From contig CP068257.2 in the NCBI GenBank assembly GCA_009914755.4, positions 7,200,001 through 7,264,000 on the forward strand: DNA of 64,000 nucleotides. The letters are read 5' to 3'. Below the pieces are notes generated by a model, which had not been told where the DNA came from, made no database searches, and was given only the letters and a program-made list of their open reading frames with translations. A program made the translations under genes and the position numbers. Origin of the DNA: the human T2T-CHM13v2.0 reference genome, Homo sapiens. Position 1 is the first letter of the stretch; each line of letters begins with the position of its first letter. Of the stretch, positions 17,001 through 45,300 are shown piece by piece.

Positions 17001-17099
17001 ATTGGAATGGAATGGAATGGAATCAACCCGAGTGGAATGGAATGGAGTGGAATGGAACACAATTGAATGGAATGGAATAGAATAGAATGCAATGGAATG

Positions 17100-18400: not shown

Positions 18401-18410
18401 TGGAATGGAA

Positions 18411-22450: not shown

Positions 22451-23259
22451 ATGTAATGGAATGGAAGGCAATGGAGTGGAATGGAAAGGAATGGAATAGA
22501 ATGGAATCAACCCGAATGGAATGGAATGGAATGGTATGGAATGGAATGCAATGGAATGCAGCGGAATGCTAAGGAATCAACCCAAATGGAATGGAATGGA
22601 ATGGTATGGAATGGAATGCAATGGAATGCAGCGGAATGCCATGGAATCAACCCGAGTGGAATGGAAAAGAATGGAATGAAATGAAATGGAATGGATTCCA
22701 CCCAAGTGGAAAGGAATGGAATGGAATGCAACGGAATCAACCCGAGTGGAATGGAATGGAAAGGAATGGAATGGAATGGAATGGAATGGAATGGAAAGGA
22801 ATGGAATGGAGTCACCAAAGAGGAATGGAATGGAATGGAATCAACCCTAGTGTAATGGAATGGAATGGAATGAAAAGTAATGGAATGGAATGGTATGGAA
22901 TCAAACCGAATGGAATGGTATGGAATGGAACAGAATGGAACGGAATGGACTGGAATAAAATGTTATGGAATGGAATGGAATCAACCAGACGGAAATAGAA
23001 AGGAATGTAATAGAATGGAATAAACCCGAGTGGAATAGAATGGAATGGAATGGAATGGAATGGAATGCCATGGAATGGAATGGAATGGAATCAACCCGAG
23101 TGGAATGGAATGGAAAGGAATGGAACGGAATGGGATGCAGTGGAATGGAATGGAATGGAATGGAATCAACCCGAGTGGAATGGAATGGAATGGAATGGAA
23201 TGGAATCAACCCGAGTGGAATGGAAAGGAATGAAATGGAATGGAATGGAATGGAAAGGA

Positions 23260-23700
23260 ATGGAGTGGAATCAACCAAAGAGGAATGGAATGGAATGTAA
23301 TGGAATGGAATGGAATGGAATGGAATGGAATGGAATGGAATGGATTGGAATGGAATGGAATTGAATGGAATGGAATCAACCAGAGTGGAATGGAGCGGAA
23401 TGGAATGGAATGGAATGGAATGGAATGGAATGGAATGGAATGGAATGGAATCAACCCGAGTGGAATTGAATGGAATGGAATGGAATGGAATCAACCCGAG
23501 TGGAATGGAAAGGAATGGAATGGAATGGAATGGAATGGAAAGGAATGGAGTGGAATCAACCCTAGAGGAATGGAATGGAATGGAATGGAATGGATTGGAA
23601 TGGAATGGAATCGAATGGAATGGAATCAACCAGAGTGGAATGGAGCGGAATGGAATGGAATGGAATGGAATGGAATGGAATGGGATGGAATGGAAATGAC
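23260..23700. repeat. ~246-bp tandem duplication (2 copies)
   Basis: The string caaccagagtggaatggagcggaatgg occurs at 23381 and 23627. ORF 23240..23827 shows an internal repeat: ...GINQSGMERNGMEWNG... appears twice. Confidence 0.6.
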
Positions 23701-24156
23701 TCAACCCGAGTGGAATGGAATGGAATGCAATGGAATGGAATGGAAAGCTATGGAATGGAAGAGAATGGAATGGAATCAACTCGAGGGTAAAGGAATGGAA
23801 TGGAAACGAATGGAATGGAATGGATAGGAATGGAATGCAATAGAATGTGATGGTATGGAATGGAGTCAAACCGAAAGGAAAGTAATGGAATGAAATTGAA
23901 TAGAATGGAAAGGAATGCAATGGAATGGAGTTGAATGGAATAAAACCCAGAGGAACGGAATGGAATGGAATGGATAGGAATGGAATGCAATGGAATGGAA
24001 TGAATTGGAATGGAATGGAATGAAATGGAATGGAATGAAATCAAACAGAGTGGAATGGAATGGAATGAAATGGAATGGAATGGAATTTATTGGAATGGAA
24101 TCAATTGGAATGGAATGAAATGGAATGGAATGGAATGCAATGGAATGGAATGGAAT

Positions 24157-24560
24157 CAACCCGAGTGGAATGGAATGCAATGGAATGCTATGGAATGGAA
24201 TGGAATGGAATTCAACTTAATGGAAACAAACCGAGTGGAATAGAATGGAACGGAAAGGACTGACATGTAATGGAATGGCTTGGAATCAACACGATAACAA
24301 TGCAACGGAATGGAATGGAATTGAATGGAATGCAATGGAATGGAATGGAATGGAATCAACCCGAGTGGAATGGAATGCAATGGAATGCTATGGAATGGAA
24401 TGGAATGGAATGGAATTCAACTTAATGGAAACAAACCGAGTGGAATGGAATGGAACGGAAAGGACTGACATGTAATGGAATGGATTGGAATCAACACGAT
24501 AACAATGCAACGGAATGGAATGGAATTGAATGGAATGCAATGGAATGGAATGGAAGGGAA
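24157..24560. repeat. ~201-bp tandem duplication (2 copies) carrying the diverged 'island' element
   Basis: The string caacccgagtggaatggaatgcaatggaatgctatgg occurs at 24157 and 24358. ORFs 24075..24263 and 24245..24475 share NATEWNG...MESTRVEWNAMECYGMEWNG. The minus-strand ORFs 24156..24380 and 24388..24807 also match. Confidence 0.7.
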
Positions 24561-27500
24561 TGGAATGGAATGCAAAGGAATAGAATGTACTGGAATGCAA
24601 TGGAATGGAATGGAATATAATTGAACTGAAAGCAATGGAATGGAATGGAATGGAATGGAATGGAATGGAATGAACCCGAATGGAGTGGAATGGAATGGAA
24701 TGGAATGGAATGGAATGGAACAGAATGGAATGAACCCGATTGGAATGCATTGGAATGGAATGGAAAGGAAAGGAATGGAATGGAATGGAATGGAATTGAA
24801 TGAACACAAGTGGAAATCGAATGGAATGGAATGGAATGGATTGGAATGGAATGGAATCGAATCAACCCGAGTGGAATAGAATGGAATTGAATGGAGTGGA
24901 ATGGAATGGAATTGAATCTAATAGAATGTAGTGGAATGGAAGGCGAAGGAATTGAATGGAATGGTATGGAATGGAATGGAATGGGATGGAAAAGAATGGG
25001 AAGGAAACAACCCGAATGAAATGGTGTGGAATGGAATGGAATCAACCCGAGTGGAATGGAATGGAATGAAATGCAATCAATCCGAATGGAATGGAATGGA
25101 ATGGAATGGAATGCTATGGAATCAAACAGAGAGGAATGGAAATGAATGGACTGGAATGGAATGGAATGGAATAGAATGGAATGGAAAAGAATTGAATGGA
25201 ATGGAAATACCCCGAGTGGAATGGAATGCAATGGAATGGAATGGAATGGAATTGAATGGAAAGTAATGGAATTCAACGGAATGCAATTAACTCACGTGGA
25301 ATGGATTGGAAAGGAATGAAATGCAATGGAATGGAAACAAAATCAACGGAATGGAATCAAAGAGTATGGAATGGAATGGAATGGAATGGGATGGAATGGA
25401 ATGGAATGGAATCAACCCGAGTGAAATGGAATAGAATAGAATTGAATGGAATCAACCTGAGTGGAACGGAATTGAATGGAAAGGAATGGAATGGAATCAA
25501 CCTGAGTGGAATGGAATGGAATGGAAAGGAATGGAATGGAATCAACCTGACTGGGATGGAATGGAATGTAAAGGAATGAATGGAATTGAATGGAATGGAA
25601 TGGTATGGAGTCAACCCGAGTGGAATGGAATGGAATGGAATGGAATGGAATACAATGGTATGGAATCAATCCGAGAGGAATAGAATGGAATGGAATGGAA
25701 TCAACCAGACAGGAATGGCACGGAATGGAATGGAATGGAATAGAACGGAATGGAATGGAACGGAAAGGAATGGAATGGAATTGATTGGAATCAACCAGAG
25801 TGGAATGTAATGGAACGAAATGCAATTGAATGGAATGGAATGTAACGGAACTGAATTGAAAGGAATTGAATGGAAAGAAACCGAATGGAATGGATTGGAA
25901 GGGAATGCAAAGTAATGGAATCAACCAGAATGGAATGGAATGGAATGGAGTGGAGTGGAATGGAATGGAATGGAATGGTATGGAATGGAATGGAATGGAA
26001 TGGAATCTACCCAAATGGAATGGAATTGAATGGAATGGAATGGAATGGCATGGAATGGTATGGAATCAACCCGAGTGGATTGGTATGGAACGGCAATGAA
26101 TGAAACGGAATTGAATGGAATAAAATGGAATGGAATGGAATGGAATCAACACGAGTGAAATGGAATGGCATGGAATGGAATGGCTTCAACAAGAGTGGAA
26201 TGGAATGAAATGGAATGGAAGGAAATTTAATGGAATGGATTCAACCTGAGTGGAAAGGAGGAAAATGGAATGGAATGTAATCAACCTGAGTGGAATGGAA
26301 TGGAATGCAATGCAATGGAATAGAATGGAATGGAAGACAGTGGAATCACCTGGAATGGAATGGAATGGAATGGAATGGAATGGAATCATTCCTTGTGTAA
26401 TGGAATGGAATGTAAAGGAGTGGAATGTAATGGAATGGTGTGGAATGGAATGGAATGGAATGGAATGGAATCAAACCGAATGGAATGGAACGGAATGCAA
26501 TGGAATTGAATTTAATGGAAAGGAATGGAATCAACCAGAAGGGAATGGTATGGAATTCAACGGAATGGAATGGAACGGAATGCTAAGGAAACAAACCGAG
26601 TGTAATGGAAAAGAATGGAATGGAATGGAATGGAATGGAATGGAATGGAATGGAATGGAGTGGAATGGAATCAAACCAATTGGAATGGAATGGAATGGAA
26701 TGCAACGGAATAAACCGGAGTGGAATGGAATGGAAAGGAATGGAATGGAATGGTATGGAATCAACCGAGTGTAATGGAATGGAATGTAATGGAAGGGAAT
26801 GGAATCAACCCGAATGTAATGGAACGGAAAGGAATGGAATGGAATGGAATGGAATCAACCCGAGTGGAATGCAAAGGAATGGAATGGAACGGAACGGAAC
26901 GGAACGGAATGGAATGGAAAGGAGTGGAATCAACCCCAGTGGAATGAAATGGAATGGAATGGAATGCAATGGAATGGAATCTAATGGTATCAACCCGAGT
27001 GGAAGGGAATGGAATGGATTGGAATGGAATGGAATGCTATGGAATCTACCCTGGGGGAATGGTATGGAATGGAATGGAATGGAATGGAATGGAATGGAAC
27101 GGAATAGAATAAAATGGAAAGGAATTGAGTTTAAGCAACCCGAGTGAAATAGAATGGAATGGAATCGCATCGAATGGGATGGGATGAAATCAACCCGAGA
27201 GGAATGGAATGGAAAGCAAAGAATCAATCGGAGGGGAATGCAATGTAATTTAATGGAATGAAACGGAATGGAATCAACCCGAGTGGAGTGGAATAAAATG
27301 GAATGGAATGGAATGGAATCAACCCGAGTGGAACGGAATGGAATGGAATGGAATGGAATCAAACCGACTGGAATGAAATGGAGTGGAATGCAATGGAATG
27401 GAATGGAGTGGTATGGAATCAACCCGAGTGGAATAGTATGGAATGGAATGGAATGGAACGAAATGGAATGGAAAAAAATGGAATGGAATGGAATGGAATC

Positions 27501-27599
27501 AACCCAAGTGAAATGGAATGGAAAGGAATGGAATGGAATCAACCCAAGTGAAATGGAATGGAAAGGAATGGAATGGAATCAACCAGAGTGGAATGGAAT

Positions 27600-28450
27600 G
27601 GAATGGAATGAAAGGGAATGGAATGTAAAGGAATCAACCTGTGTGGAATGGAATGGAAGGGAATGGAATGGAATGAAATGGAATATAATGGAATGGAATG
27701 GAATCATCCCGGGTTGAAAGGAATGTTATGGAATGCAACGGAACGGAATGGAACACAACGGAATGGAATGCAACGGAATAGATTGAATCAGAGAGGAATT
27801 GAATGGAGAGGAATGGATTGGAATGGAATGCAATGGATTCAACCCTAGTTGAATGTCATGGATTGGAAAGGAATGGAATGGAATGGAATGGAATGGAATG
27901 GAATGGAATGGAATGGAGTGGAATGGAATGGAGTGGAATCAACACGAATGGAATGGAACGGAATGGAATGGAATGTAATGGAATGAAATGGAATGGAATG
28001 GAATGGAAACAACACGAATAGAATGGAACGGAATGGAATGGAATGCTGTGGAATGGAAAGGATTGGAATGAAATAAACACGAATAGAATGGAACGGAATG
28101 GAATGGAACGGAATGGAATGGAATGGAAAGGAATGGAGTGAAATGGAAAGGAACGGAATGGAATTAACCCGAGTGGAATTGAATGGAATGGAAAGGAATA
28201 AACACGAGTGGAATGAAACGGAATGTAATGCAATGGAACGGAGCGGAATCATTCTGAGTGGAATGGAATGCAATGGAATGGCATGGAATGGAATGGAATG
28301 GAATGGAATGGAATGGAGTGGAGTGGAATGCAATGCAATGGAATGGAATGGAATGGAATCAACCCGAATGGAATGGAATGGAGTGGAATGGAATCAACAC
28401 GAATGGAATGGAATGGCATGGAATGGAATGGAATGGAATGGAATCAACCA
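27600..28450 (+). repeat. Ectopic island of the downstream (36.7-64 kb) HSat3 subfamily embedded in the upstream domain
   Basis: It contains gattgaatcagagaggaattgaatggagaggaatggattggaatggaatgcaatggattcaaccctagttgaatgtcatggattggaaagg at 27781. It also contains cacgaatagaatggaacggaatggaatggaatgctgtggaatgg at 28018 and 28078, and ggaattaacccgagtggaattgaatgg...gtaatgcaatggaacggagcggaatca at 28160. All three are signatures otherwise confined to >36.7 kb. ORF 27618..27848 matches 37507..37692. Confidence 0.7.
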
Positions 28451-28949
28451 GACTGGAATGGAGTGGAATGGAGTTTAATGGAATGGAATGGAATAGAATG
28501 GTATGGAATCAACACGAGAGGAATGGTATGGAATGGAATGGAATGGAACGGAATGGAATGGAATAAAATGGAATGGAATGGAATGGAATCAACCAGAGTG
28601 GAATGGAATGGAACGGAGTAGAATGCAATGGAATGGAATGGAATGCAATGAAATGGAAAGGAACGGAATGGAATCAACCCGAGTGGAATGGAAAGGAATG
28701 GAATGGAATCAACCCGAGTGGAATGGAATGGAATGGAATAGAATGGAATGGAATGGAATGTAACGGAATATAATGGAATGGAATTGAATCATCCCCAGTG
28801 GAATGGAATGCAATGGAATCAACAAGATTGAAATGGAGTGTAATGGACTGGAATGGAATCAACCCGAGTGGAATGCAATGGAATGGAACGGAAAGGAATG
28901 GCATGGAATGGAATGGAATGGAATCAGCCCGAGTAGAATGGAATGGAAT

Positions 28950-29850
28950 GGAATGCAATGGAATGGAATGGATAGTAATGGAACGGAACAGAATGGAATG
29001 GAATATAATGGAATGAACCCGAATGGAACGGAAGGAATGAACCCGAGTGGAATGGAATTGCATGGAATGGATTGGAATGGAATGGATTGGAATCAACCCG
29101 AGTGGAATGGAATGGAATAGAATGGAGTGGAATGGAATGGAATGGAATGGAATGGAATGGAATGGAATGGAATGGAATAGAATGGAATGGAATGAAATGG
29201 AATCAACCAGAATGGAATGGAATGGAATGGAATGGAATGGAAGGGAATGGAGTGAAATCGAGTGGAATCAATACGAGTGGAATGGAATGGAATGGAATGG
29301 AAGGGAATGGAATGGAATGGAATCAAACCGAGTGGAATGGAAAGGAATGGAATGGAAAGGAACGGAAAGGAATGGAAAGGAATGGAATGGATTGGTATGG
29401 AATCAACATTAGTGGAATAGAATGGAATGGAATGGAATGGAACAGAGTGGAATGGAATATAATGGAATGGAATGCAATGGAATCAACAAGAATGAAATGG
29501 AGTGTAATGGAATGGAATGGATTCAACCCGAGTGGAATGGAATGGAATCAACCCGAGTGGAATGGAATGTAATGGAATGGAATCAACCCGAGTGGAATCG
29601 AATGGAATGCAATGGAATGGAATGGAACGTTATGGAATGGAATAGATTGGAATGGAATCAACTTGAGGGGAAAGGAATGGAATGGATAGGAATGGAATGG
29701 AATGGATAGGAATGGAATGCAATGGAATGCAATGGTATAGAATGGAGTCAAACCGAGAGGAATGTAATGGAATGGAATTGAATGGAATGCAATGGAATGG
29801 AATGGAAACAACCCGAGTGGAATGGAATGCAATGGAATGCAATGGAATAG
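28950..29850 (+). repeat. Fifth copy of the recurrent ~1.2-kb module M1 (other copies at 360-1830, 6330-7560, 20600-21690, 21690-22450)
   Basis: ORFs 28803..29120 and 29072..29572 carry MQWNGMDSNG.EQNGME / MEGNGMEWNQTEWN / GMDWYGINISGIEWNG / AMESTRMKW.VMEWNG. ORF 29682..29885 carries MQWYRMESNREECNGMELNG. The ggattggtatggaatcaacattagtggaat signature is at 29390. Confidence 0.65.
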
Positions 29851-30430
29851 AATTCAACGTAATGGAAACAACCCGAGTGGAATAGAATGGAATGGAAAGG
29901 AATGAAATATAATGGAATGGATTGGAATCAACCCGAATCCAATGCAAGGGAATGGAATGGAAAGCAAAGCAACGGAATGGAATGGAAGGGAATGGAATGG
30001 AATGGAAAGGAATGGAATGGAATAAACAATAGTGGAATGATATGGAATGGAATGGAAAGGAATGGAATGGAATGGAATGTAATGGTATGGAATCAACCCG
30101 AGGGGAATGGTATGGAATGGAATGTATTGGAACGGAATGGAATGGAATAAAATGCACTGGAATGGAATGGAATCAACCCGAGAGAAGAGGAAGGGAATGG
30201 AATGGAATGGAATCACCACGAGGGGAATGGAATGGAATGGAATGGAATGGGATCGAATGGAATTGAATGGAATCACCCTGAGTGTAATGGAAGGGAATTG
30301 AATGGATTGGAATCAACGGGAGTGGAATGGAAAGGAATGGAATGGAATGGAATGGAATGGAATGGAATGGAATGAACGAAATCAACCTCAGTGGAATGGA
30401 ATGGAATGGAATGGAGTGGAATAGAATGGA

Positions 30431-33400
30431 ATGGACAATAATTGAATGGAATGGAAACACCCCGAGTGGAATGGAACGCAATGGAATGGAATGGAATGGA
30501 AAGTAATGGAATTCAACGGAATGGAACTAACTCGAGTGGAATGGAATGGAATGGAATGGAATGGAATGGAATGGAAACAAACTCAACGGAATGCAATCAA
30601 ACAGAATGGAATAGAATGGAATGGAATGGAATGGGATGGAATGGAATAGAATGGAATGGAATCAACCCGAATGAAATGAAATGGAATGGAATGGAATGGA
30701 ATCAACCTGAGTGGAATGGAATGGAATGGAATGGAAACGAATGGAATGTAATCAACCAGACTGGAATGGAAAGGAATGTAAAGGAATGAATGGAATTGAA
30801 TGGAATGGAATGGTATGAACACAACCCGAGTGGAATAGAATGGAATGGAATGGAATGAAATAGAATGGAATGGAACGGAATCAACCGGAGAGGAATGGAA
30901 TGGAATGAAATGGAAACAACCAGACTGGAATGGAACGGAACGGAATGCAATGGAATAGAACGGAATGGAATGGAACGGAACGAAATGGAATGGAATGGAA
31001 TGGAATCAACCCGACTAGAATGGAATGGAACGGAATGAAATGAAGTGGAATGGAATGTAACGGAACGGAATTGAAATGAATGGAATGGAATGAAACCGAA
31101 TGGAATGGATTGGAATGGATTGGAAGGGAATGCAATGCAATGGAATCAACCCGAATGGAATGGAGTGGAAAGGAATGGAGTGGAATGTTATGGAATGGAA
31201 TGGAATGGAATGGAATGGAATGGAATAAACCCGAGCGGAATGGAATTGAATGGAAGGCAATGGAATGGAATGGAATGGAATGGAATGGAATGCATTGGAA
31301 TCAACTGGAATGGAATGGAATGGAATGGAATGGAATGGAATGGAATCAATCCGGGTTGAATGGAATGGAATGGAATGGAGTCAAATGTAACGCAATGGAG
31401 TGGAATTGAATGGAATGGAATCAACCCGAATGAAATGGATTAGATTGGAATGCAATGGAATCAACCTGAGTGGAAAAGAATGGAATGGAATAGAATGGAA
31501 TGGAATGGAATGGAATAGAATGGAATTGAATGGAATGGAATTTAATGGAATGGAATGGAATGGAATGGAATCAAGCCGAATGGAAAGGAAAGGAATGGAA
31601 TGGAATGGAATGGAATGGAATGGAATGGAGTGAAATGGAATGCAATCAACACGATTGGAATGGAATGGAATGGAATGGAAGGGAATTGAATGGAATGGAA
31701 TCAAACCGAGTGGAATGGAATGGAATGAAATGGAAAGGAATTGAAAGGAATGGAAAGGAAAGGAATATACTGGTGTGGAATCAACAGTAGAGGAATGGAA
31801 TGGAACGGAATGCAATGGAATGGAACAGAATGGAATGGAAAGGAATGGAATGGAATCAACCCGAATTAAATGGAGTGGAATGGAATGGAATGGAATCAAC
31901 CCGAGTGGAATGGAATTGATTGGAATGGAATGGAATGGAATGGAATGGAATGGAATGGAATGGAATGGGATGGAATGGAATGGGATGGAATGGAATGGAA
32001 TCAAACCGAATTAAATGGAGTGGAATGGAATGGAACGGAATCAACCCGAGTGGAATGGAATTGAATGGAATGGAATGGAATGGAATGGAATGGAATGGAC
32101 AAGAATTGAATGGAATGGAAACACCCCGAGTGGAATGGAACGCAATGGAATGGAATGGAATGGAAAGTAATGGAATTCAACGGAATGGAACTAACTCGAG
32201 TGGAATGGAATGGAATGGAATGGAATGGAATGGAATGGAAACAAACTCAACGGAATGCAATCAAACAGAATGGAATGGAATGGAATGGAATGGAATGGGA
32301 TGGAATGGAATAGAATGGAATGGAATCAACCCGAATGAAATGAAATGGAATGGAATGGAATGGAATCAACCTGAGTGGAATGGAATGGAATGGAATGGAA
32401 AGGAATGGAATGTAATCAACCAGACTGGAATGGAAAGGAATGTAAAGGAATGAATGGAATTGAATGGAATGGAATGGTATGAACACAACCCGAGTGGAAT
32501 AGAATGGAATGGAATGGAATGAAATAGAATGGAATGGAACGGAATCAACCCGAGAGGAATGGAATGGAATGAAATGGAAACAACCAGACTGGAATGGAAC
32601 GGAACGGAATGCAATGGAATAGAACGGAATGGAATGGAACGGAACGAAATGGAATGGAATGGAATGGAATCAACCCGACTAGAATGGAATGGAACGGAAT
32701 GAAATGAAGTGGAATGGAATGTAACGGAACGGAATTGAAATGAATGGAATGGAATGAAACCGAATGGAATGGACTGGAATGGATTGGAAGGGAATGCAAT
32801 GCAATGGAATCAACCCGAATGGAATGCAGTGGAAAGGAATGGAGTGGAATTTTATGGAATGGAATGGAATGGAATGGAATGGAATGGAATGGAATGGAAT
32901 GGAATGGAATGGAATAAACCCGAGCGGAATGGAATTGAATGGAAGGCAATGGAATGGAATGGAATGGAATGGAATGGAATGCATTGGAATCAACTGGAAT
33001 GGAATGGAATGGAATGGAATGGAATGGAATTGAATCAATCCGGGTTTAATGGAATGGAATGGAATGGAGTCAAATGTAACGCAATGGAGTGGAATTGAAT
33101 GGAATGGAATCAACCCGAATGGAATGGATTAGATTGGAATGCAATGGAATCAACCTGAGTGGAAAAGAATGGAATTGAATAGAATGGAATGGAATGGAAT
33201 GGAATCAAGCGGAATGGAAAGGAAAGGAATGGAATGGAATGGAATGGAATGGAATGGAATGGAATGGAATGGAATGGAATGGAGTGAAATGGAATGGAAT
33301 CAACACGATTGGAATGGAATGGAATGGAATGGAAGGGAATTGAATGGAATGGAATCAAACCGAGTGGAATGGAATGGAATGGAATGGAAAGGAATTGAAA

Positions 33401-35380
33401 GGAATGGAAAGGAAAGGAATATACTGGTGTGGAATCAACAGTAGAGGAATGGAATGGAACGGAATGCAATGGAATGGAACAGAATGGAATGGAAAGGAAT
33501 GGAATGGAATCAACCCGAATTAAATGGAGTGGAATGGAATGGAATGGAATCAACCCGAGTGGAATGGAATTGATTGGAATGGAATGGAATGGAATGGAAT
33601 GGAATGGAATGGAATGAAATGGGATGGAATGGAATGGGATGGAATGGAATGGAATCAAACCGAATTAAATGGAGTGGAATGGAATGGAACGGAATCAACC
33701 CGAGTGGAATGGAATTGAATGGAATGGAATGGAATGGAATGGACAAGAATTGAATGGAATGGAAACACCCCGAGTGGAATGGAACGCAATGGAATGGAAT
33801 GGAATGGAAAGTAATGGAATTCAACGGAATGGAACTAACTCGAGTGGAATGGAATGGAATGGAATGGAATGGAATGGAATGGAAACAAACTCAACGGAAT
33901 GCAATCAAACAGAATGGAATGGAATGGAATGGAATGGAATGGGATGGAATGGAATAGAATGGAATGGAATCAACCCGAATGAAATGAAATGGAATGGAAT
34001 GGAATGGAATCAACCTGAGTGGAATGGAATGGAATGGAATGGAAAGGAATGGAATGTAATCAACCAGACTGGAATGGAAAGGAATGTAAAGGAATGAATG
34101 GAATTGAATGGAATGGAATGGTATGAACACAACCCGAGTGGAATAGAATGGAATGGAATGGAATGAAATAGAATGGAATGGAACGGAATCAACCCGAGAG
34201 GAATGGAATGGAATGAAATGGAAACAACCAGACTGGAATGGAACGGAACGGAATGCAATGGAATAGAACGGAATGGAATGGAACGGAACGAAATGGAATG
34301 GAATGGAATGGAATCAACCCGACTAGAATGGAATGGAACGGAATGAAATGAAGTGGAATGGAATGTAACGGAACGGAATTGAAATGAATGGAATGGAATG
34401 AAACCGAATGGAATGGATTGGAATGGATTGGAAGGGAATGCAATGCAATGGAATCAACCCGAATGGAATGCAGTGGAAAGGAATGGAGTGGAATTTTATG
34501 GAATGGAATGGAATGGAATGGAATGGAATGGAATGGAATGGAATAAACCCGAGCGGAATGGAATTGAATGGAAGGCAATGGAATGGAATGGAATGGAATG
34601 GAATGCATTGGAATCAACTGGAATGGAATGGAATGGAATGGAATGGAATGGAATGGAATTGAATCAATCCGGGTTTAATGGAATGGAATGGAATGGAGTC
34701 AAATGTAACGCAACGGAGTGGAATTGAATGGAATGGAATCAACCCGAATGGAATGGATTAGATTGGAATGCAATGGAATCAACCTGAGTGGAAAAGAATG
34801 GAATTGAATAGAATGGAATGGAATGGAATGGAATCAAGCGGAATGGAAAGGAAAGGAATGGAATGGAATGGAATGGAATGGAATGGAATGGAATGGAGTG
34901 AAATGGAATGGAATCAACACGATTGGAATGGAATGGAATGGAATGGAAGGGAATTGAATGGAATGGAATCAAACCGAGTGGAATGGAATGGAAAGGAATT
35001 GAAAGGAATGGAAAGGAAAGGAATATACTGGTGTGGAATCAACAGTAGAGGAATGGAATGGAACGGAATGCAATGGAATGGAACAGAATGGAATGGAAAG
35101 GAATGGAATGGAATCAACCCGAATTAAATGGAGTGGAATGGAATGGAATGGAATCAACCCGAATTAAATGGAGTGGAATGGAATGGAATGGAATCAACCC
35201 GAGTGGAATGGAATTGATTGGAATGGAATGGAATGGAATGGAATGGAATGGAATGGAATGGAATGGGATGGAATGGAATGGGATGGAATGGAATGGAATC
35301 AAACCGAATTAAATGGAGTGGAATGGAATGGAACGGAATCAACCCGAGTGGAATGGAATTGAATGGAATGGAATGGAATG
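30431..35380 (+). repeat. ~1.65-kb higher-order repeat, 3 near-identical tandem copies (30431-32094, 32095-33738, 33739-~35380)
   Basis: ORF sets recur with period 1664 then 1644: 30442/32110/33754, 30583/32247/33891 on the minus strand, 30702/32366/34010, 31080/32754/34398, and 31856/33510/35154. Translations are identical over as much as 142 aa between copies 2 and 3. The signature ggaatggacaaKaattgaatggaatggaaacaccccgagtgg is at 30431, 32093 and 33737. The end of copy 3 is the least certain boundary: I did not see identity to the other copies past ~35315. Confidence 0.88.
35111..35190. repeat. 40-bp tandem duplication inside HOR copy 3 (gaatcaacccgaattaaatggagtggaatggaatggaatg x2)
   Basis: Read directly: the unit starts at 35111 and again at 35151. 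The corresponding site in copies 1 and 2 (31851, 33505) carries the unit once. Confidence 0.8.
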
Positions 35381-35429
35381 GAATGGAATGGAATGGAATG
35401 GAATGGAATGGAATGGAATGGAATGGAAT

Positions 35430-36300
35430 CAACCCGAGAGGAATGGAATGGATTGGAATGGAACAGAATGGAATGGAATGGAATGGAATGGAAATAACTC
35501 AACCCGAGTGTAATGGAATGGAGTGCAATGGAATGGAATGGAACGGTATGGAATGGAATTGAATGGAATGGAATCAACTAGAGGGTAAAGGAATGCAATG
35601 GAATGGATAGGAATGAAATGCAATGGAATGCAGTGGTATGGAATGGAGTCAAACCGAGAGGAAAGTAATGGAATGAAATTGAATGGAATGGAATGGAATG
35701 CAATGGAATGGAATTGAATGGAATAAACCCCAGAGGAACGGAATTGAATGGAATGGAATGGAATGGATAGTAATGGAATGGAATGAATTGGAATGGAATG
35801 GAATGGAATGAAATCAAACAGAGTGGAATGGAACTGAAAGAAATGGAATGGAATGGAATTTATTGGAATGGATTCAACTGGAATGGAATGAATTGGAATG
35901 GAATGGAATGGAATGGAATGGAATGCAATGGAATGGAATGGAAACAACCCGACTGGAATGGAATGCAATGGAATGCTATGGAATGGAATGGAATGGAATT
36001 CAATGTAATGGAAACAAACCGAGTGGAATGAAATGGAACGGAAAGGACTGACATGTAATGGAATGGATTGGAATCAACAGGATTCCAATGCAACGGAATG
36101 GAATGGAATGGAATGGAATGGAATGGAATGGAATGGAATGCAATGGAATGGAATGGAAGGGAATGGAATGGAATACAAAGGAATGGAATGTACAGGAATG
36201 GAATGGAATAGAATGGAATATAATTGAAAGGAATGGAATGGAATGGAATGGAATGAACCCGAGTGGAGTGGAATGGAATGGAATGGAAATGAATGGAATG
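35430..36300. repeat. Segment related to 23750-24600 (offset ~11.8 kb)
   Basis: Minus-strand ORF 35429..35968 matches 23748..24044 and 23866..24180. ORFs 35783..36031 and 35848..36051 match 24010..24243 and 24075..24263. The island element caacMggattccaatgcaacgg is at 36071 and 24290. Confidence 0.6.
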
Positions 36301-37269
36301 CAATGGAATTAAATGGAAAGGAACGGAATGGAATCAACACGAGTGGAATGGAATGGAATGGAATGGAATGGAATCAACCCGAGTGGAATGGAATGGAATG
36401 GAGTTTAATGGAATGAAATAGAATAGATTGGTATTTAATCAACCTGAGAGGAATGGTATGGAATGGAATGGAATGGAATAAAATGGAATGGAATGGAATG
36501 GAATCAACCCGAGTGGAAGGGAATGGAATGGAATGGAATCAACCGGATTGGAATGGAATGGAATGGAATGGAGTGGAATGGAATGGAATGCAATGAAATG
36601 GAAAGGAATGCTATGGAATCAACCCGAGTGAAATGGAAATGAATGGAATGGAATGGAATGGAATGGAATGGAATCGAATGGAGTCAAGCCAAGTGCAATG
36701 GAATGGAATAGAATGCCACGGAATCAGCGCGAGTGGAATGGAATAGAAAGGCATGCAATGGAATGGGTTGGAAAGCAATGGAATGGAATCAACCCGACTG
36801 GAATGGAATGGAATGGAAAGGAATGAAGGGAATGGAATGGAATGGAAAGGTATGGAATCAACCCGAGTGGAATGGAATGGAAAGAAATGAAATGGAATGG
36901 AATGGAAAGGTATGGAATCAACCCGAGTGGAATGGAATGGAATGGAATGAAATGGAATGGAATGGAGTGGAATGGAAGGTAAGGCAATGGAATGGAATGG
37001 AATGGAATGGAACGGAACGGAATGGAATTGAATGGCATGGAATGAACCTGAACGGAATGGATTGGAATGGAATGGAATGGAATGGAATGGAATCGAATCA
37101 GCTCGAGTGGAATGAAATGTAATGGAATGCAGTGGAATGGAATGGAATTGAATGGAATGGAATGGAATGCAATGGAATGGAATGGAATGGAATCAAACGG
37201 ATTGGAATGGAATGGAATGGAATGGAATGGAATGGAATGGAATGGCATGGAATCAAACCGAGTGAAATG

Positions 37270-39350
37270 GAATGGAATGGTATGGAATCAACCCGAGTGG
37301 AATATTATCGAATGGAATGGAATTGAACGGAATGCATTGGAATAAAATGGAATGAAATGGAATGGAATCAACCAGAGTGGAATGGAATGGAATGGAGTGG
37401 AATGGAATATAATGGAATGGAACAGAATTAAATGGAAAGGAACGGAATGGAATCAACACGAGTGGAATGGAATGGGATGGAATGGAATGGAATCAACCCG
37501 AGTTGAATGGAATGGAATGGAATGCAATGGAATGAAACGGAATATAATGGAATGGAATGGAAACATCCCAAGAGGAAAGGAATGGTATGGAATGCAATGG
37601 AACGGAATGGAACAGAACGGAATGGAATGGAATGGAATAGATTGAATCAGAGAAGAATTGAGTGGAGAGGAATGGATTGGAATGGAATGTAATGCATTCA
37701 CCCCTAGTTGAATGTAATGGATTGGAAAGGAATGGAATGGAATGGAATGGCGTGGAATGGAATAGAATCAACTCGAGTGGAATGGAATGTAATGGAATGG
37801 AGTGGAATCGAATGGAATGGAATGGAGTCAACCCGAGTGGAATATTATCGAATGGAATGGAATGGAACGGAATGGAATAAAGGAATGGAATAAAATATAA
37901 TGGAATGGAATGGAATCAACCGGAGTGGAATGGAATGGAATGGAGTGGAATGGAATAAAATGGAATGGAATGGAACTAAATGGAAAGGATCAGAATGGAA
38001 TCAACACGAGTGGAATGGAATGGAATGGAATGGAATGGAATGGAATGGAATCAACCCGAGTGGAATGGAATGGAATGGAATGCAATGGAATGAAACAGAA
38101 TAAAGTGGAATGGAATGGAAACATCCCGAGTGGAATGGAATGGTATGGAATGCAATGGAACGGAATGGAACAGAACAGAATGGAATGGAATGGAATAGAT
38201 TGAATCAGAGAGGAATTGAAGGGAGAGGAATGGATTGGAATGGAATGGAATGGATTCAACCCTAGTTGAATGTCACGGATTGGAAAGGAATGGAATAGAA
38301 TGGAATGGAATGGAGTGGAATGGAATGGAGTGGAATCAACAAGAGTGGAATGGAACGGAATGGAATGGAATGGAATGGAATGGAATGGAATGGAATGGAA
38401 ACAACACGAATAGAATATAACGGAATGGAATATAATGCTGTGGAATGGAATGGAATGGAATGAAATAAACACGAATAGAATGGAACGGAATGGAATGGAA
38501 AGGAATGGAATGGAATGGAATGGAATAGAATGGAGTGAAATGGAAAGGAACGGACTGGAATTAATCCGAGTGGAATTGAATGGAATGTAATGCAATGGAA
38601 TGGAGCGGAATCAACCTGAGTGGAATGGAATGGAATGGAATGGAATGGAATGGAATGGAGTGGAATGGAATTGAATGGAATGCAATGGAATGGAATGGAA
38701 TGGGATCAACCCGAATGGAAGGGAACGGAATGGAATGGAAAGGAATGGAATGGAATGGAATGGAATAGAATGGAATTGAATAGATTGAATCAGAGAGGAA
38801 TTGAATGGAGAGGAATGGATTGGAATGGAATGCAATGGATTCAAATCTAGTTGAATGGAATGGAATGGAATGGAATGGAATGGAGTGGAATGGAATGGAG
38901 TGGAATCAACTGGAATGGAATGGAATGGAATGGAATGGAATGGAAACAACACGAATAGAATGGAACGGAATGGAATGGAATGCTGTGGAATGGAAAGGAG
39001 TGGAATGAAATAAACACGAACAGAGTGGAACGGAATGGAATGGAATGGAATGGAATGAAATGGAATGGAATGGAATGGAATGGAGTGAAATGGAAATGAA
39101 CGGAAAGGAACTAAACCGAGTGGAACTGAATGGAATGGAAAGGAATCAACCCGAGTGGAATGAAATGGAATGTAATGCAACGGAATGGAGCGGAATCAAC
39201 CTGAGTGGAATGTCATGGAATGGAATGGAATGGAATGGAATGAAATGAAATGGAATGGAACGGAATGGAAATAACCCGAGTGGAATGGAATGGAATGGAA
39301 AGGAATCAACCCGAGTGGAATGAAATGGAATGTAATGCAATGGAAAAGAG
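37270..39350 (+). repeat. ~570-bp higher-order repeat, ~3.6 tandem copies, within the downstream subfamily
   Basis: The signature element is at 37641, 38201 and 38790, spaced 560 and 589 bp apart. ORF 37352..37645 matches 37910..38203 at a 558-bp offset. ORFs 37662, 38235 and 38805 (MERNGLEWNAMDS.LVE) are spaced 573 and 570 bp. Minus-strand ORFs 37990..38595 and 38611..39180 match. Confidence 0.7.
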
Positions 39351-42300
39351 CGGAATCAACCCGAGTCGAATGAAATGGAATGGAATGGAAAGGAGTGGAA
39401 TGGAATGGAATGCAATGGAATTGAATGGAATGGGATGCAATGGAATGGAATGGAATCCAATGGAATCAACTGGAATGGAATAGCATAGAATGGAATGGAA
39501 TGGAATGGAATCAATCCGGGTGGAATGGAATGGAATGTATTGAGTGGAATGGAATGGAATGGAATGCAGTGGAATTTAATGGAATGGAATCAACCCGAAT
39601 GGAATGGAACGGAATGGAATGGAAAGGAATGGAATGGAATGGAATGGAATGGAATGGAATCAACCCGAATGGTATGGAATAGAATGGAATGGATTGGAAT
39701 GGAATGCAATGGAATGCTATGGAATCAATCCGAGTGTAAGGGAAATGCATGGAATGGAATGGAATGGACTGGAATTAACCCAATTGCAATGGAATGGAAT
39801 GGAATGCAACGGAATCAACCCAAGTGGAATGGAATGGAAAGGAATGGAATGAAATGGAATGGAAAGGAATAGAATGGAATCAACCTGAATGGAATGAATT
39901 GGAATGGAAAGGAATGAATGTAATGTAATGGAATGGAATGGAATGGAATGGAATGGAATGGGATGGAATCAACCCGAGTGGAATGGAATGGACAGGAATG
40001 GAATAGAATTGAATGGAATGGAATGGAATGGAATGGAATGGAATGGAATGGAATGCAATGGAATGGAATGGAATGGAACGGAATGGAATGGAATGGAACG
40101 GAATGGAAACGAATGAACCCGAGTGGAGTGAAATGGAATGTAATGCAATGGAATGGAGCGGAATCAACCTGATTGGAATTGAATGGAATGGAATGGAATG
40201 GAATGCAATGGAATGGAATTAAATCAACCCGAATGGAATGGAACGCAATGGAAAGGAAAGGAATGGAAAAGAATGGAATGGAAAGGAATGGAAAGGAATG
40301 GAATGGAATGGAATGGAATGGAATGGAATGGAATCATCCCTAGTGGAATGGAATGGTATGGAATGCAATGGAATGGAATGGAGCAGAACGGAATGGAGTG
40401 GAATGGAATAGATTGAATCCGAGAGGAATTGACTTGAGTGGAATGGATTGGAATGGAATGCAAGGGATTCAACCCATTTGAATGTCATGGATTGGAAAGG
40501 AGTGGAATGGATTGGAATGGAAAGGAGTGGAATGTAATGGAATAGAATCAACACGAATGGAATGGAACAGAATGGAATGGAATGGAAACAACACGAATGG
40601 AATGGAACGGAACGGAATGGAATGGAATGCTGTGGAATGGAAAGAATTGGAACGAAATAAACACGAATAGAATGGAACGGAATGGAATGGAAAGGAATGG
40701 AATGGAATGGAATGGAATGGAATGGAATGGAATGGAATGGAATGAAATGGAAAGGAACGGAATGGAATTAACCCGAGTGGAACGGAATGGAATGGAAAGG
40801 AATCAACCCGAGTGGAATGAAATGGAATGTAATGCAATGGAATGGAATGGAATGGAATGGTATGGAATCAACCCGAGTGGAATATTATCGAATGGAATGG
40901 AATGGAACGGAATGGAATGGAATAAAATGTAATGTAATGGAATGGAATCAACAGGAGTGCAATGGAATGGAATGGAGTGGAATGGAATATAATGGAATGG
41001 AATGGAATTAAATGGAAAGGAAAGGAATGGAAGCAACACGAGTGGAATGGAATCAACCCGAGTGGAATGGAATGGAATGCAATGCAATGGAATGAAACGG
41101 AATATAATGGAATAGAATGGAAACATCCTGAGTGGAATGGAATGGTACGGATTGCAATGGAACGGAATGGAAAAGAACGGAATGGAATGGAACGGAATAG
41201 ATTGAATCAGAGAGGAATTGATTGGAGAGGAATGGATTGGAATGGAATGCAATGGATTCAACGCTAGTTGAATATCATGGATTGGAAAGGAATGGAATGG
41301 AATGGAATGGAGTGGAGTGGAATGGAATAGAATCAACTCGATTGGAATGTAATGTAATGGAATGGAGTGGAATGGAATGGAATTGAATGGAATGGATGGA
41401 ATGGAATGGAATGGAATGGAATGGAATGGAATGGGGTGGAATGGAATGGAAAGCAATGAAATGGAAAGGAATGCTATGGAATCAACCCGAGTGTAATGGA
41501 AATGAATGGAATGGAATGGAATGGATTGGAATGGAATGGAATGGAATCAAGCCAAGTGCAATGGAATGGAATAGAATGCAACGGAATCAACACGAGTGGA
41601 ATGGAATAGAAAGGCATGCAATGGAATGGAATGGAAAGCAATGGAATGGAATCAACCCGACTGGAATGGAATGGAGTGGAAAGGAATGAATGGAATGGAA
41701 TGCAATGGAAAGGTATGGAATCAACCCGACTGGAATGGAATGGAATGGAATGGAATGGAATGGAATGGAATGGAGTGGAATGGAAGGCAATGCAATGGAA
41801 TGGAACGGAATGCAATGGAACGGAACGGAATGGAATTGAATGGCAGGGAATGAACCCGAATGGAATGGAATGGAATGGAATGGAATGGAATATAATCAAC
41901 TCGAGTGGAATGGAGTGTAATGGAATGGAGTGGAATGGAATGGAAATGAATGGAATGGAATGGAATGGAATGGAACGGAATGGAATGGAATGGAATCAAC
42001 ACGACAGGAAAGGAATGGAATGGAAAGGAATGGAATGGAATCAACCAGAGTGGAATGGAATGGAATGGAATGAAATGGAATTGAACGGAATACAATGGAA
42101 TTCAATGGAGTCACCCCGAGTGGAATGGCATGGTATGGAATGCAATGGAATGGAATGGAACAGAACGGAATGGAATGGAATCAATAGATTGAATCCGAGT
42201 GGAATTGAATGGAATGGAATGGATTCGAATTTAATGGAATGGATTGGAATGTAAAGCAATTATTTCAAACCGATTGGAATGTCATGGATTGGAATGGAGT

Positions 42301-45300
42301 GCAATGGAATGGAATGGAATGGAAAGGAATGGAGTGAAATGGAGTAAACACCAGTGGAATGAAATGGAATGGAATGAAATACAATGGAATGGAATGGAAT
42401 GGAATGAACCCGAATGGAATGGAATGGAATGAAATCAACCAGAGTGGAATGGAATGGTATGGAATGGAATCGAATGGAATGGAAAGGAATGGAATCAACT
42501 CTAATGGAAAAAAATGGAATGGAATGGAATGGAAACAACACGAATGGAATGGAACGGAACGGAATGGAATGGAATGCTGTGGAATGGAAAAAATTGGAAC
42601 GAAATAAACACGAATAGAATGGAACAGAATGGAATGGAAAGGAATGGAATGGAATGGAATGGAATGGAATGGAATGGAATCGAATGAAATGGAAAGGAAC
42701 GGAATGGAATTAACCCAAGTGGAATGGAATGGAAAGGAATCAACCCGAGTGGAATGAAATGGAATGTAATGCAATGGAATGGAGCGGAATCAACCTGAGT
42801 CGAATGCAATGGAATGGAATGGAAAGGAGTGGAATGGAATGGAATGGAATGGAATGGAATGGGATGCAATGGAACGGAATAGAATCCAATGGAATCAACT
42901 CGAATGGAGTAGCATAGAATGGAATGGAATGGAATGGAATCAATCCGGGTGGAATGGAATGGAATGTATGGAGTGGACTGGAATGGAATGGAGTGGAATG
43001 GAATGGAATGGAATGCAGTGGAATTTAATGGATTGGAATCAACCCGAATGGAATGGAACGGAGTGGAATGGAAAGGAAAGGAATGGAATGGAATGGAACG
43101 GAACGGAATGGAATGGAATGGAATGGAATGGAATGGAATGGAATGGAATGGAATGCAATGGAATGCTATGGAATCAATCCGAGTGTAAGGGAAATGCATG
43201 GAATGGAATGGAATGGAATGGAATTAACCCAAGTGCAATGGAATGGAATAGAATGCAACGGAATCAACCCAAGTGGAATGTAATGGAAAGGAATGGAATG
43301 AAATGGAATGGAAAGAATGGAATGGATTCAACCCGAATGGAATGAAATGGAATGGAAAGGAATGAATGGAATGGAATGGAATGGAAAGGAATCAACCCGA
43401 GTGGAATGAAATGGAATGTAATGCAATGTAATGGAGTGGAATCAACCTGATTGGAATGGAATGGAATGCAATGGAATGGAATGGAATGAAATCAACCCGA
43501 ATGGAATGGAACGGAATGGAAAGGAAAGGAATGGAATGGAATGGAATGGAAATGAATGGAATGGAATCATCCCGAGTGGAATGGAATGGTATAGAATGCA
43601 ATGGAATGGAATGGAACAGAACGGAATGGCGTGGAATGGAATAGATTGAATCCAAGAGGAATTGACTTGAGTGGAATGGATTGGAATGGAATGCAAGGGA
43701 TTCAACCCAGTTGAATGTCATGGATTGGAAAGGAGTGGAATGAATTGGAATGGAAAGGAGTGGAATGGAATGGAATGGAATCAACACGAATGGAATGGAA
43801 CGGAATGGAATTGAATGGAAACAACACGAATGGAATGGAAGGGAATGGAATGGAATGGAATGCTGTGGAATGGAAAAAATGGGAAAGAAAAAAACACGAA
43901 TTGAATGGAACAGAATGGAATGGAAAGGAATGGAATGGAATGGAATGGAATCGAATGAAATGGAAAGGAACGGAATGGAATTAACCCGAGTGGAACGGAA
44001 TGGAATCGAAAGGAATCAACCCGAGTGGATTGAAATGGAATGTAATGCAATGGAATGGAGCGGAATCAACCTGAGTCAAATGCAATGGAATGTAATGCAA
44101 TGGAATGGAGCGGAATCAACCTGAGTCAAATGCAATGGAATGTAATGGAAAGGAGTGGAATGGAAAGGAATGGAAAGGAATGGAATGAAATGGGATGCAA
44201 TGGAACAGAATGGAATCAAATGGAATCAACTGGAATGGAATAGCATAGAATGGAATGGAATGGAATGGAATCAATCCGGGTGGAATGGAATGGAATGTAA
44301 GGAGTGGAATAGAATGGAATGGAGTGGAATGGAATGGAATGTAATGCAGTGGAATTTAATGGAATGGAATCAACCCGAATGGAATGGAACGGAATTGAAT
44401 GGAATGGAATGGAATGGAATGGAATGGAATGTAATGGAATGCAATGAAATGGAATCAACCCGAATGGGATGGAATGGAATGGAATGCAATGGAATGGAAT
44501 GGAATGGAAAGGAATGCAATGGAATGCTATGGAATGAACCCGAGTGTAAGGGAAAAGCATGGAATGGAATGGAATGGAATGGAATCGAATCAACCCAAGT
44601 GCAATGGAATGGAATGGAATGCAACGGAATCAACCCGAGTGGAATGAAATGCAAAGGAATGGAATGAAATGGAATGGAAAGGAATGGAATGGAATCAACC
44701 CGAATGGAATGGAATAAAAAGGCATGCAATAGAATGGAATGGAAAGCAATGGAATAGAATCAACCCGACTGGAATGGAATGGAATAGAAAGGAATGAATG
44801 TAAAGGAATGGAATGGAAAGGTATGCAATCAACTCCAGTGGAATGGAATGGAATGGAATGGAATGGAATGGAGAAGAATGGAAGGCAAAGCAATGGAATG
44901 GAAAGGAATGGAATGGAATGGAATGGAATGGAATGGAATGGAATGGAATCAACTCGAGTGAAATGGAATGTAATGAAATGGAGTGGAACGGAATGGAATT
45001 GAATGGAAAGGAATGGAACGGAATGGAATGGAATGGAATCGAATGCAATGAACCCAAATGGAATGGAATGGAATGGAATGGAATGGAATGGAATGGAAAG
45101 GAATGGAATGGAATGGAAAAAACCCGACTGGAATGGAATGGAATGGAATGGAATGGAGTGGAATGGAAGGCAATGCAATGGAATGGAATGGAATGGAAAG
45201 GAATGGATCGGAATGGAATTAAATGGCATGGAATGGAATCAACCCGTATCGAATGGAATGGAATGGAATGGAATGGAATGGAATGGAATGGAATGGAATC

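What the first reader, a model, noticed from the sequence alone, without database searches (positions are those of the whole stretch)
30431..35380. Recently homogenised 1.65-kb higher-order repeat (3 copies, near-identical)
Copies 2 and 3 give identical translations over >140 aa in several frames, which means roughly no differences over >400 nt. Copy 1 is slightly more diverged and 20 bp longer, and copy 3 carries a private 40-bp duplication. This divergence gradient and the private indel fit recent unequal-crossover amplification. The flanks (30.3-30.43 kb and 35.4-36.7 kb) do not continue the HOR, so this is a short local expansion rather than part of a megabase HOR array. That makes it useful as a locus-specific marker.
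Basis: seen in the sequence. Interest (0 to 1): 0.5.

Follow-up and report, generated by a model that had tools for sequence, protein, structure and literature searches.

The report
Local triplication inside satellite III DNA
A 1.65-kb stretch of ordinary (GGAAT)n pericentromeric satellite DNA has been copied three times in a row fairly recently, which is real but is the normal, already described way such satellites evolve.

Summary
Window 30431-35382 holds three head-to-tail copies of 1664, 1644 and 1642 bp. Substitution identity is 99.1-99.8% between copies. Random 1.65-kb pieces of the same array average 86.9% (maximum 90.2%), and both flanks sit at that background level. Offsets of 1644, 1664 and 3308 bp are among the four strongest k-mer self-match distances in the window, and they occur only here.

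The whole 64-kb window is one uninterrupted, single-orientation (GGAAT)n array with CAACCCGA(G/A)T interruptions. That is Human Satellite 3-type DNA.

Copies 2 and 3 differ by 3 substitutions (0.19%). Copy 1 differs from them by 0.7-0.9%. An older partial paralogue at 25181-26006 serves as outgroup and shows derived changes on both branches, giving the tree ((c2,c3),c1) and at least two duplication steps. The indels I resolved are whole GGAAT multiples. Both outer junctions lie in (GGAAT)n runs.

The best explanation is out-of-register exchange or replication slippage. This is a hyper-local "nested tandem repeat" expansion, as already described for HSat2/3 in the T2T centromere work. It is not an array-wide HOR. 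No gene, RNA family or foreign insertion is present.

The marker and polymorphism claims could not be tested, because no other haplotype was retrievable. Interest is low.

The parts
1..64000 (+). Host array: uninterrupted, single-orientation (GGAAT)n satellite of HSat3 type
   Evidence: TRF gives one array, 11-64000, period 5, 12,812 copies, 71% matches. GC is 0.40-0.42 and GC skew +0.61 to +0.69 throughout. Exact GGAAT covers 52% of bases. CAACCCGA occurs 235 times on + and once on -. No 100-bp window falls below 51% near-GGAAT cover, so there is no foreign insertion. All 2000 blastn HSPs are plus/plus.
30431..32094 (+). Copy 1 of the 1.65-kb unit (1664 bp), the most diverged copy
   Evidence: 0.87% and 0.70% substitutions against c2 and c3. 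About 12 private substitutions and a private 55-bp (11-pentamer) block around 31517-31571.
32095..33738 (+). Copy 2 (1644 bp)
   Evidence: 0.19% from c3. Shares a 679-bp exact run with c3. Private substitutions at 32774 and 33617. Carries 15 extra bp in the run at 32854-32868.
33739..35382 (+). Copy 3 (about 1642 bp)
   Evidence: Private substitution at 34714. Private indels: -15 bp at 34854, -10 bp at 34986, a -5/+5 pentamer shift around 34606-34623, and the +40 bp duplication.
35100..35139 (+). Copy-3-private perfect 40-bp tandem duplication (identical to 35140-35179)
   Evidence: c1 and c2 carry one copy of this 40-mer, at 31842-31881 and 33496-33535.
30395..30430 (+). Left junction: near-pure (GGAAT)n run in which homology to the inter-copy junctions decays
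   Evidence: Base-by-base walk leftwards from 30440 against 32104 and 33748. Only about 45 bp of pentamer-run similarity, then background.
35365..35429 (+). Right junction: (GGAAT)13, the longest pure pentamer run in the whole window
   Evidence: The sequence beyond it (CAACCCGAGAGG...) does not match the start of the unit.
25181..26006 (+). Older partial paralogue of unit positions 1-800 (about 92% identity), used as outgroup
   Evidence: Best non-self blastn hit. Signature match with 2 mismatches at 25178. 91.6-92.3% identity to c1-c3 against the 87% background. Collinear only over the first 800 bp of the unit.

Best explanation
This is a selectively neutral, hyper-local tandem amplification inside a Human Satellite 3-type (GGAAT)n array. 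A formerly single-copy 1.65-kb stretch of irregular satellite was bounded on both sides by nearly pure (GGAAT)n runs. It was first duplicated by out-of-register pairing of those two runs, through unequal sister-chromatid or homologue exchange or through replication template switching. Once two 1.65-kb copies existed, a second out-of-register event using the full-length homology produced the third copy; c2 and c3 are its products. Afterwards each copy gained a few point substitutions and several whole-pentamer slippage indels, including a 40-bp duplication in c3. The block encodes nothing of its own and behaves like the rest of the array. Shown: the three copies, their identities, the tree, the pentamer-multiple indels and the junctions in GGAAT runs. 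Inferred: the molecular mechanism, the neutrality and the ages.
For: Copy identity is 99.0-99.8% against 86.9% (maximum 90.2%) for random pieces, and the flanks are at background. The period peaks at 1644, 1664 and 3308 bp are confined to 30440-35397. There are exactly 3.0 copies, with both outer boundaries inside (GGAAT)n runs; the right boundary is the longest pure run in the window. Tree ((c2,c3),c1): divergences are 0.19% against 0.70-0.87%. The outgroup at 25181-26006 shows 4 changes derived in c1 (30439, 30613, 30738, 30887) and 2 derived and shared by c2 and c3 (31163, 31187), as expected for two successive events. The six c2/c3 indels are all multiples of 5 bp (5-40 bp), the signature of pentamer slippage. 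The same window holds other local duplications of different periods and ages: 564 bp at 100%, 440 bp at 98.8%, 1117 bp at 98%, 1721 bp at 97.4%, and dispersed pairs at 97-97.5%. Patchy local duplication is therefore the general mode of this array. [quoted passage not shown] No Rfam family was found, and the long ORFs arise only because GGAAT repeats lack stop codons.
Against: The sequence does not discriminate unequal crossing-over from replication slippage or template switching, or from break-induced replication. No second haplotype, read-level data or orthologue could be obtained, so recency in population terms, polymorphism and assembly correctness are untested. The substitution counts are small (3 to 14), so the two-step order rests on few sites.
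Confidence: 0.85

Rival explanations
1. These are the remnant or edge of a once longer, or still existing, regular 1.65-kb NTR/HOR array. The three copies would be survivors rather than a new local expansion.
For: Several HSat3 arrays do have kb-scale units of 0.58-3.6 kb, such as pTRS-47 at 1366 bp, pE-1 at 1748 bp and D15Z1 at 1.8 kb (Table S1 of PMC4022460). One diverged partial paralogue exists 5.25 kb upstream.
Against: Both flanks drop at once to background identity of 86-88%. No other part of the 64 kb shows the 1.65-kb period or shares 40-mers with the unit. The paralogue covers only the first 800 bp of the unit and is 92% identical, so it is not part of a periodic series.
Confidence: 0.05
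2. Gene-conversion homogenisation: three old, diverged neighbouring copies were recently made alike by conversion, rather than newly duplicated.
For: c1-private substitutions thin out in the last ~400 bp of the unit.
Against: An old tandem triplet would be expected to leave diverged unit-like sequence in the flanks or patches of low identity inside the copies. Instead identity is uniformly at least 99% over the full 1.65 kb and ends sharply in GGAAT runs. In segment-wise counts the 3' 460 bp still shows 3 c1/c2 differences, so there is no significant mosaic.
Confidence: 0.05
3. Assembly artefact: a false expansion or mis-join of reads in a low-complexity satellite.
For: Satellite arrays are the hardest regions to assemble, and I have no read data.
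Against: The copies are not identical. They differ by 3-14 substitutions and 6-8 indels. The c2/c3 indels are all whole-pentamer multiples of 5-40 bp, which looks like biological slippage rather than homopolymer-type read error. The junctions are clean and in register.
Confidence: 0.04
4. A functional unit amplified under selection, for example a transcription-factor or HSF1 platform or a transcribed SatIII unit.
For: HSat3 as a whole is reported to bind TEAD and HSF1 through GGAATG-type motifs (PMC11526998).
Against: The unit has the same composition as the rest of the array: 54% exact GGAAT against 52% window-wide. There is no Rfam hit and no distinctive element. Other equally young duplications of unrelated stretches occur elsewhere in the window.
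Confidence: 0.01

Closest known systems
Human Satellite 3 (HSat3, classical satellite III; Prosser et al. 1986; subfamilies A1-6 and B1-5 of Altemose et al. 2014, PMC4022460)
   Same: The base repeat is pentameric (GGAAT)n/(ATTCC)n, with diverged pentamers and frequent CAACCCGA(G/A)T interruptions. It is one orientation, AT-rich and strongly G-over-C skewed. No HSat2-specific 24-mers are present.
   Different: The subfamily could not be assigned. Of the 11 published top HSat3 subfamily-specific 24-mers, only the HSat3B1 one occurs exactly, and only once; 10 sites lie within 1 mismatch. The HSat3B5 (chr9) 24-mer has no site within 1 mismatch. Species and chromosome are unknown.
Nested tandem repeats (NTRs) of HSat2/3 with hyper-local expansion (Altemose et al., T2T centromere paper, 10.1101/2021.07.12.452052)
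   Same: A kb-scale unit built from variable numbers of short repeats is repeated head-to-tail, with a periodicity present only in a small part of the array.
   Different: There are only three copies (5 kb). It is an incipient or abortive NTR, not an array-defining one.
Classical cloned HSat3 long units (pTRS-47 1366 bp, pTRS-63 1404 bp, pW-1 1524 bp, pE-1 1748 bp, D15Z1 KpnI 1.8 kb, DYZ1 3.56 kb)
   Same: The unit size class (1.4-3.6 kb) and pentamer-derived make-up are the same (Table S1 of PMC4022460).
   Different: Those units are repeated hundreds to thousands of times and define whole arrays or chromosomes. Sequence comparison with them was not possible with the tools here.
Alpha-satellite higher-order repeats (HORs)
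   Same: Both show tandem copies that are much more alike than their constituent short repeats, and both are generated by unequal exchange.
   Different: HORs are a fixed integer number of ~171-bp monomers and are homogenised over hundreds of kb to Mb. Here the monomer is 5 bp, the unit length varies (1642-1664 bp) by pentamer slippage, and the periodicity stops after three copies.

Membership tests
Human Satellite 3 (HSat3) | Array derived from the pentamer (GGAAT)n/(ATTCC)n | tested here: met
   TRF period 5 over 11-64000. Exact GGAAT covers 52% of the window and 54% of the unit. Mean near-GGAAT cover is 80%.
Human Satellite 3 (HSat3) | Pentamer runs interrupted by the ~10-bp motif CAACCCGA(G/A)T (the definition comes from my own knowledge of Prosser et al. 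1986) | tested here: met
   CAACCCGAGT occurs 154 times and CAACCCGAAT 53 times on the + strand. The median spacing of CAACCCGA-like motifs is 137 bp, and 77% of spacings are multiples of 5.
Human Satellite 3 (HSat3) | Not HSat2: lacks HSat2-specific sequence (HSat2A1, A2 and B top 24-mers; CATCATCGAATGGAA-type motifs) | tested here: met
   No match even at 2 mismatches for all three HSat2 24-mers, and no match for the HSat2-type motifs.
A specific HSat3 subfamily (A1-A6, B1-B5; Altemose 2014) | Enrichment of that subfamily's specific 24-mers | tested here: inconclusive
   Only the single most common 24-mer per subfamily was available (Table 1). The stored full list is truncated within the HSat2 entries. 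B1 gives 1 exact and 10 within 1 mismatch, A4 gives 0 and 9, B5 gives 0 and 0.
Higher-order repeat (HOR) in the alpha-satellite sense | A unit made of a discrete, constant number of similar-length monomers, repeated homogeneously across an array | tested here: not met
   Unit lengths are 1664, 1644 and 1642 bp and differ by whole-pentamer indels. There are only 3 copies, and the flanks are at background identity. No 1.65-kb diagonal occurs elsewhere in the window.
Nested tandem repeat (NTR) of HSat2/3 | A long (kb) unit composed of irregular short repeats, repeated head-to-tail, possibly only locally | tested here: met
   Three in-register head-to-tail copies at 99-99.8% identity.
Product of unequal crossing-over | Reciprocal deletion allele, exchange of flanking markers, or a hybrid middle copy | tested here: inconclusive
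   The junctions lie in GGAAT runs, which is compatible. A 5'/3' segment comparison showed no significant hybrid pattern in the middle copy. Reciprocal products need other haplotypes, which were not retrievable.
Human origin / specific chromosomal locus | A match to a placed position in a human (T2T) assembly | not testable with these tools
   No human genome collection is available. Scans of the metagenome and prokaryote genome collections returned 0 hits.

The most novel reading that the evidence does not exclude
The block is an incipient nested tandem repeat caught at birth. It would be a human-lineage-specific, copy-number-polymorphic (1 to 3 or more copies) expansion whose unit-specific k-mers tag one position in an otherwise unmappable multi-megabase HSat3 array. 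Together with the other dated local duplications in the window (100%, 99.8%, 99%, 98%, 97%, 92%), it would give a usable clock for the rate of local duplication in HSat3.
Probability: 0.3. Interest if true: 0.25.

Novelty: already known. Interest (0 to 1): 0.1.

Why it matters
It matters little beyond bookkeeping. It is a clean, well-resolved small example of how kb-scale periodicity arises in a pentameric satellite: duplication between pure GGAAT runs, then re-duplication through the new homology, then pentamer slippage. If the block is unique genome-wide, its private k-mers and junctions could anchor reads or probes inside an HSat3 array, and copy number could be compared across pangenome haplotypes. 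The phenomenon itself, hyper-local NTR expansion in HSat2/3, has already been described from T2T-CHM13. Nothing here suggests a new element, gene or mechanism.

Tried and rejected
1. Other haplotypes or paralogues. I ran exact scans of metagenome contigs and genome contigs with two unit-specific signatures, GGACAAGAATTGAATGGAATGGAAACACCCCGAG and ATATACTGGTGTGGAATCAACAGTAGAGG. These collections are not human, so the result says nothing about uniqueness in the human genome.

2. HSat3 subfamily assignment from published subfamily-specific 24-mers. Only one 24-mer per subfamily was usable. The stored supplementary list is sorted by subfamily and cut off before any HSat3 entries. The result is inconclusive.

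3. Hybrid middle copy or crossover breakpoint. c1-private substitutions seemed absent from the last ~450 bp of the unit. Re-inspection found a further c1/c2 difference at 31728, and the segment-wise counts (3, 1 and 1 substitutions in the 3' 460 bp) are too few to support a mosaic. I dropped this.

4. Transversion excess in c1. Of 12 c1-private substitutions, 2 are transitions and 10 transversions. Other young duplicates in the window are also transversion-rich (50:69). My hand binomial against that background gives P of about 0.06, so it is not special to this block.

5. Coding or RNA content. Rfam found nothing at gathering thresholds. ORFs of 134-207 aa on both strands are by-products of a stop-free pentamer repeat.

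6. Foreign insertions or inversions in the window. None was found.

7. Two apparent clusters of mismatches in the MAFFT alignment (31288-31305 and 31517-31536). By eye these are a -5/+5 pentamer shift in c3 and a 55-bp block private to c1, not point-mutation clusters.
Full report
**What the window is.** The entire 64-kb window is one tandem array of the pentamer GGAAT on the + strand. Tandem Repeats Finder reports a single array from 11 to 64000, with period 5, 12,812 copies and 71% matches. Composition is flat, with GC 0.40-0.42 and GC skew +0.61 to +0.69 in every 2-kb bin. Exact GGAAT covers 52% of the bases. The pentamer runs are interrupted about every 137 bp (median) by CAACCCGA(G/A)T-type motifs. 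CAACCCGA occurs 235 times on + and once on -, and 77% of the spacings are multiples of 5. No 100-bp window departs from satellite composition, and all 2000 blastn self-hits are plus/plus, so there are no inserted elements and no inversions. None of the published HSat2-specific 24-mers is present even at two mismatches. From my own knowledge, this is the classical definition of Human Satellite 3 (Prosser et al. 1986). The subfamily could not be settled. Of the top subfamily-specific 24-mers of Altemose et al. 2014 (PMC4022460, Table 1), only the HSat3B1 one occurs exactly, and only once. The fuller list held in the library is cut off before the HSat3 entries. Species and chromosome cannot be determined with the tools available.

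**Checking the observation.** A k-mer self-match distance histogram over the whole window puts 1644, 3308 and 1664 bp among its four strongest peaks at k = 30, 40 and 60; the other is 564 bp. Merging matches along diagonals shows those distances occur only between 30440 and 35397.

- Thirty-seven random pairs of 1650-bp pieces of the same array average 86.9% and never exceed 90.2%.
- The 1.65 kb on either side of the block scores 86-88% against every copy.
- A k-mer identity map in 800-bp bins ranks the copy pairs among the most similar bin pairs of the window; they take six of the top seven places.
- The lengths are 1664, 1644 and 1642 bp, so copy 1 is indeed 20 bp longer.
- Copy 3 carries a private and perfect 40-bp tandem duplication, 35100-35139 = 35140-35179.
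- The longest exact run shared by copies 2 and 3 is 679 bp.

Every factual element of the finding is therefore confirmed and lies far outside what the array gives by chance.

**Fine anatomy.** With a stricter alignment the copies differ by 14 (c1/c2), 11 (c1/c3) and 3 (c2/c3) substitutions, which is 0.87%, 0.70% and 0.19%.

- Two apparent mismatch clusters in the MAFFT alignment are indels on inspection. One is a pentamer lost on one side and gained on the other side of a GCATTGGAATCAACT motif in copy 3. The other is a 55-bp (11-pentamer) block private to copy 1.
- The six indels between copies 2 and 3 are all multiples of 5 bp (5, 5, 10, 15, 15 and 40), which is the mark of pentamer slippage. 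The strict alignment of copy 1 against the other two splits some gaps into non-multiples (1+26, 4+1), so I do not claim this for every gap.
- The outer boundaries both lie in pentamer runs. To the left, similarity to the inter-copy junctions fades within about 45 bp of near-pure GGAAT (30395-30430).
- To the right, copy 3 runs into (GGAAT)13 at 35365-35429, the longest pure run in the whole window. After that run the sequence is unrelated to the start of the unit.
- There are thus exactly three copies and no partial fourth.

**History.** The best non-self relative of the unit is an older partial paralogue at 25181-26006. It is collinear with the first 800 bp of the unit only and is about 92% identical, above the 87% background. 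Used as an outgroup over those 800 bp, it shows four changes derived in copy 1 (30439, 30613, 30738, 30887), two derived and shared by copies 2 and 3 (31163, 31187), and one private to copy 2. This gives the tree ((c2,c3),c1) with change on both deep branches, meaning two successive duplications rather than one triplication. Assuming 0.5e-9 to 2e-9 substitutions per bp per year, the c2/c3 split is of the order of 0.5-2 Myr (Poisson range 0.1-5.5 Myr), and the split from c1 is of the order of 2-9 Myr. The higher rate allows for the elevated rates reported for satellite arrays, which I cite from my own knowledge. These ages are inferences that depend on the assumed rate. They caution that "recent" is relative to the array and not necessarily to the human population.

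**Mechanism.** The most economical account has four steps.

1. A single-copy 1.65-kb stretch lay between two GGAAT runs.
2. Out-of-register pairing of those runs produced two copies. The mechanism could be unequal sister-chromatid or homologue exchange, or replication template switching.
3. The new 1.65-kb homology then allowed a second out-of-register event, which produced the third copy.
4. Slippage then added or removed pentamers.

The steps shown directly are the copies, the tree, the pentamer-multiple indels and the junction positions. The molecular route is inferred and cannot be discriminated from sequence alone. I looked for a hybrid middle copy, as unequal crossing-over predicts. Differences in the 3' 460 bp are too few (3, 1 and 1) to say anything.

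**Context within the window.** The block is not unique in kind. The window contains several other duplications.

- 181-771 is 100% identical to 745-1335, a perfect 591-bp match at offset 564. This duplication is younger than the finding.
- A 440-bp tandem duplication lies at 10158-11006 (98.8%).
- Duplications with 1117/1132-bp offsets lie at 20629-22466 (98-100%).
- A duplication with a 1721-bp offset lies at 45356-48156 (97.4%).
- Dispersed pairs 5.7, 7, 10, 13 and 14 kb apart are 97-98.6% identical.

The array therefore has no global periodicity. It is a patchwork of local duplications of different sizes and ages.

**Comparison with what is known.** The T2T centromere paper states that HSat2/3 long units should be called nested tandem repeats. 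[quoted passage not shown] Classical HSat3 clones have units of 0.58-3.6 kb (Table S1 of PMC4022460). The block here meets the NTR description. It fails the strict HOR definition because it has variable unit length, no fixed monomer count and only three copies. It is an instance of a described phenomenon in a described satellite family.

**Rivals.**

- *Remnant of a larger 1.65-kb array.* Disfavoured by the abrupt return to background identity in both flanks and by the absence of the period elsewhere in the window.
- *Conversion-driven homogenisation of old copies.* Disfavoured by the uniform identity of at least 99% ending sharply in GGAAT runs.
- *Assembly artefact.* Unlikely because the copies carry distinct substitutions and whole-pentamer indels, but it needs reads to exclude.
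- *Selected functional unit.* Has no support. Composition equals that of the array, there is no Rfam hit, and the ORFs are stop-free repeat artefacts.

**What could not be tested.** The claims that the block is a locus-specific marker and is copy-number polymorphic need human assemblies. Four scans of the available non-human collections with two unit-specific signatures returned nothing and are uninformative.

**Verdict.** The thing itself is ordinary satellite III turnover and already known in kind, so interest is low.

Noticed in passing
window 181-1335: A perfect tandem duplication with a 564-bp period: 181-771 is 100% identical to 745-1335 (591 bp, no mismatch, no indel). It is younger than the triplication in the finding, and its ends are sharp.
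   Followed up: yes
window 10158-11006; 20629-22466; 45356-48156: Further local duplications with other offsets. One is 440 bp (98.8%, no indel). Another is 1117/1132 bp (98.0% and 100% over two segments). A third is 1721 bp (97.4%, with 15-bp indels). The array is a patchwork of local duplications, not a regular periodic array.
   Followed up: partly
window 2440-3365 vs 8187-9217; 3966-4911 vs 17166-18116; 50006-50549 vs 60055-60593; 51594-51960 vs 58629-58995; 6346-6661 vs 20643-20958: Dispersed (non-adjacent) duplicated segments 5.7-14.3 kb apart at 97-98.6% identity. They suggest older, larger segmental duplications within the array that have since been broken up.
   Followed up: partly
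window 25181-26006: An older partial paralogue (about 92%) of the first 800 bp of the triplicated unit lies 5.25 kb upstream. The remaining 850 bp of the unit has no counterpart there.
   Followed up: yes
whole window (young duplicate pairs listed): Substitutions between young duplicate copies are transversion-rich: 50 transitions to 69 transversions overall, and 2 to 10 for the copy-1-private changes. The usual genome-wide ratio is about 2:1 in favour of transitions. Many changes hit the first G of GGAAT. The cause could be mutational bias, templated conversion between variant pentamers, or alignment effects; I did not resolve it.
   Followed up: partly
whole window: Polarity is strictly uniform. 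CAACCCGA occurs 235 times on + and once on -, and all blastn self-hits are plus/plus. There is no inversion breakpoint in 64 kb, whereas the chr9 HSat3B5 array is reported to contain over 200 inversion breakpoints.
   Followed up: no
window 20491-20609: A short tandem array with a 20-bp period (matches at offsets 20 and 40) is nested in the satellite just upstream of the 1117-bp duplication.
   Followed up: no
window 29630-36303 (ORF list): ORFs of 134-207 aa occur on both strands. They exist only because GGAAT/ATTCC repeats contain no stop codon in the frames concerned.
   Followed up: yes
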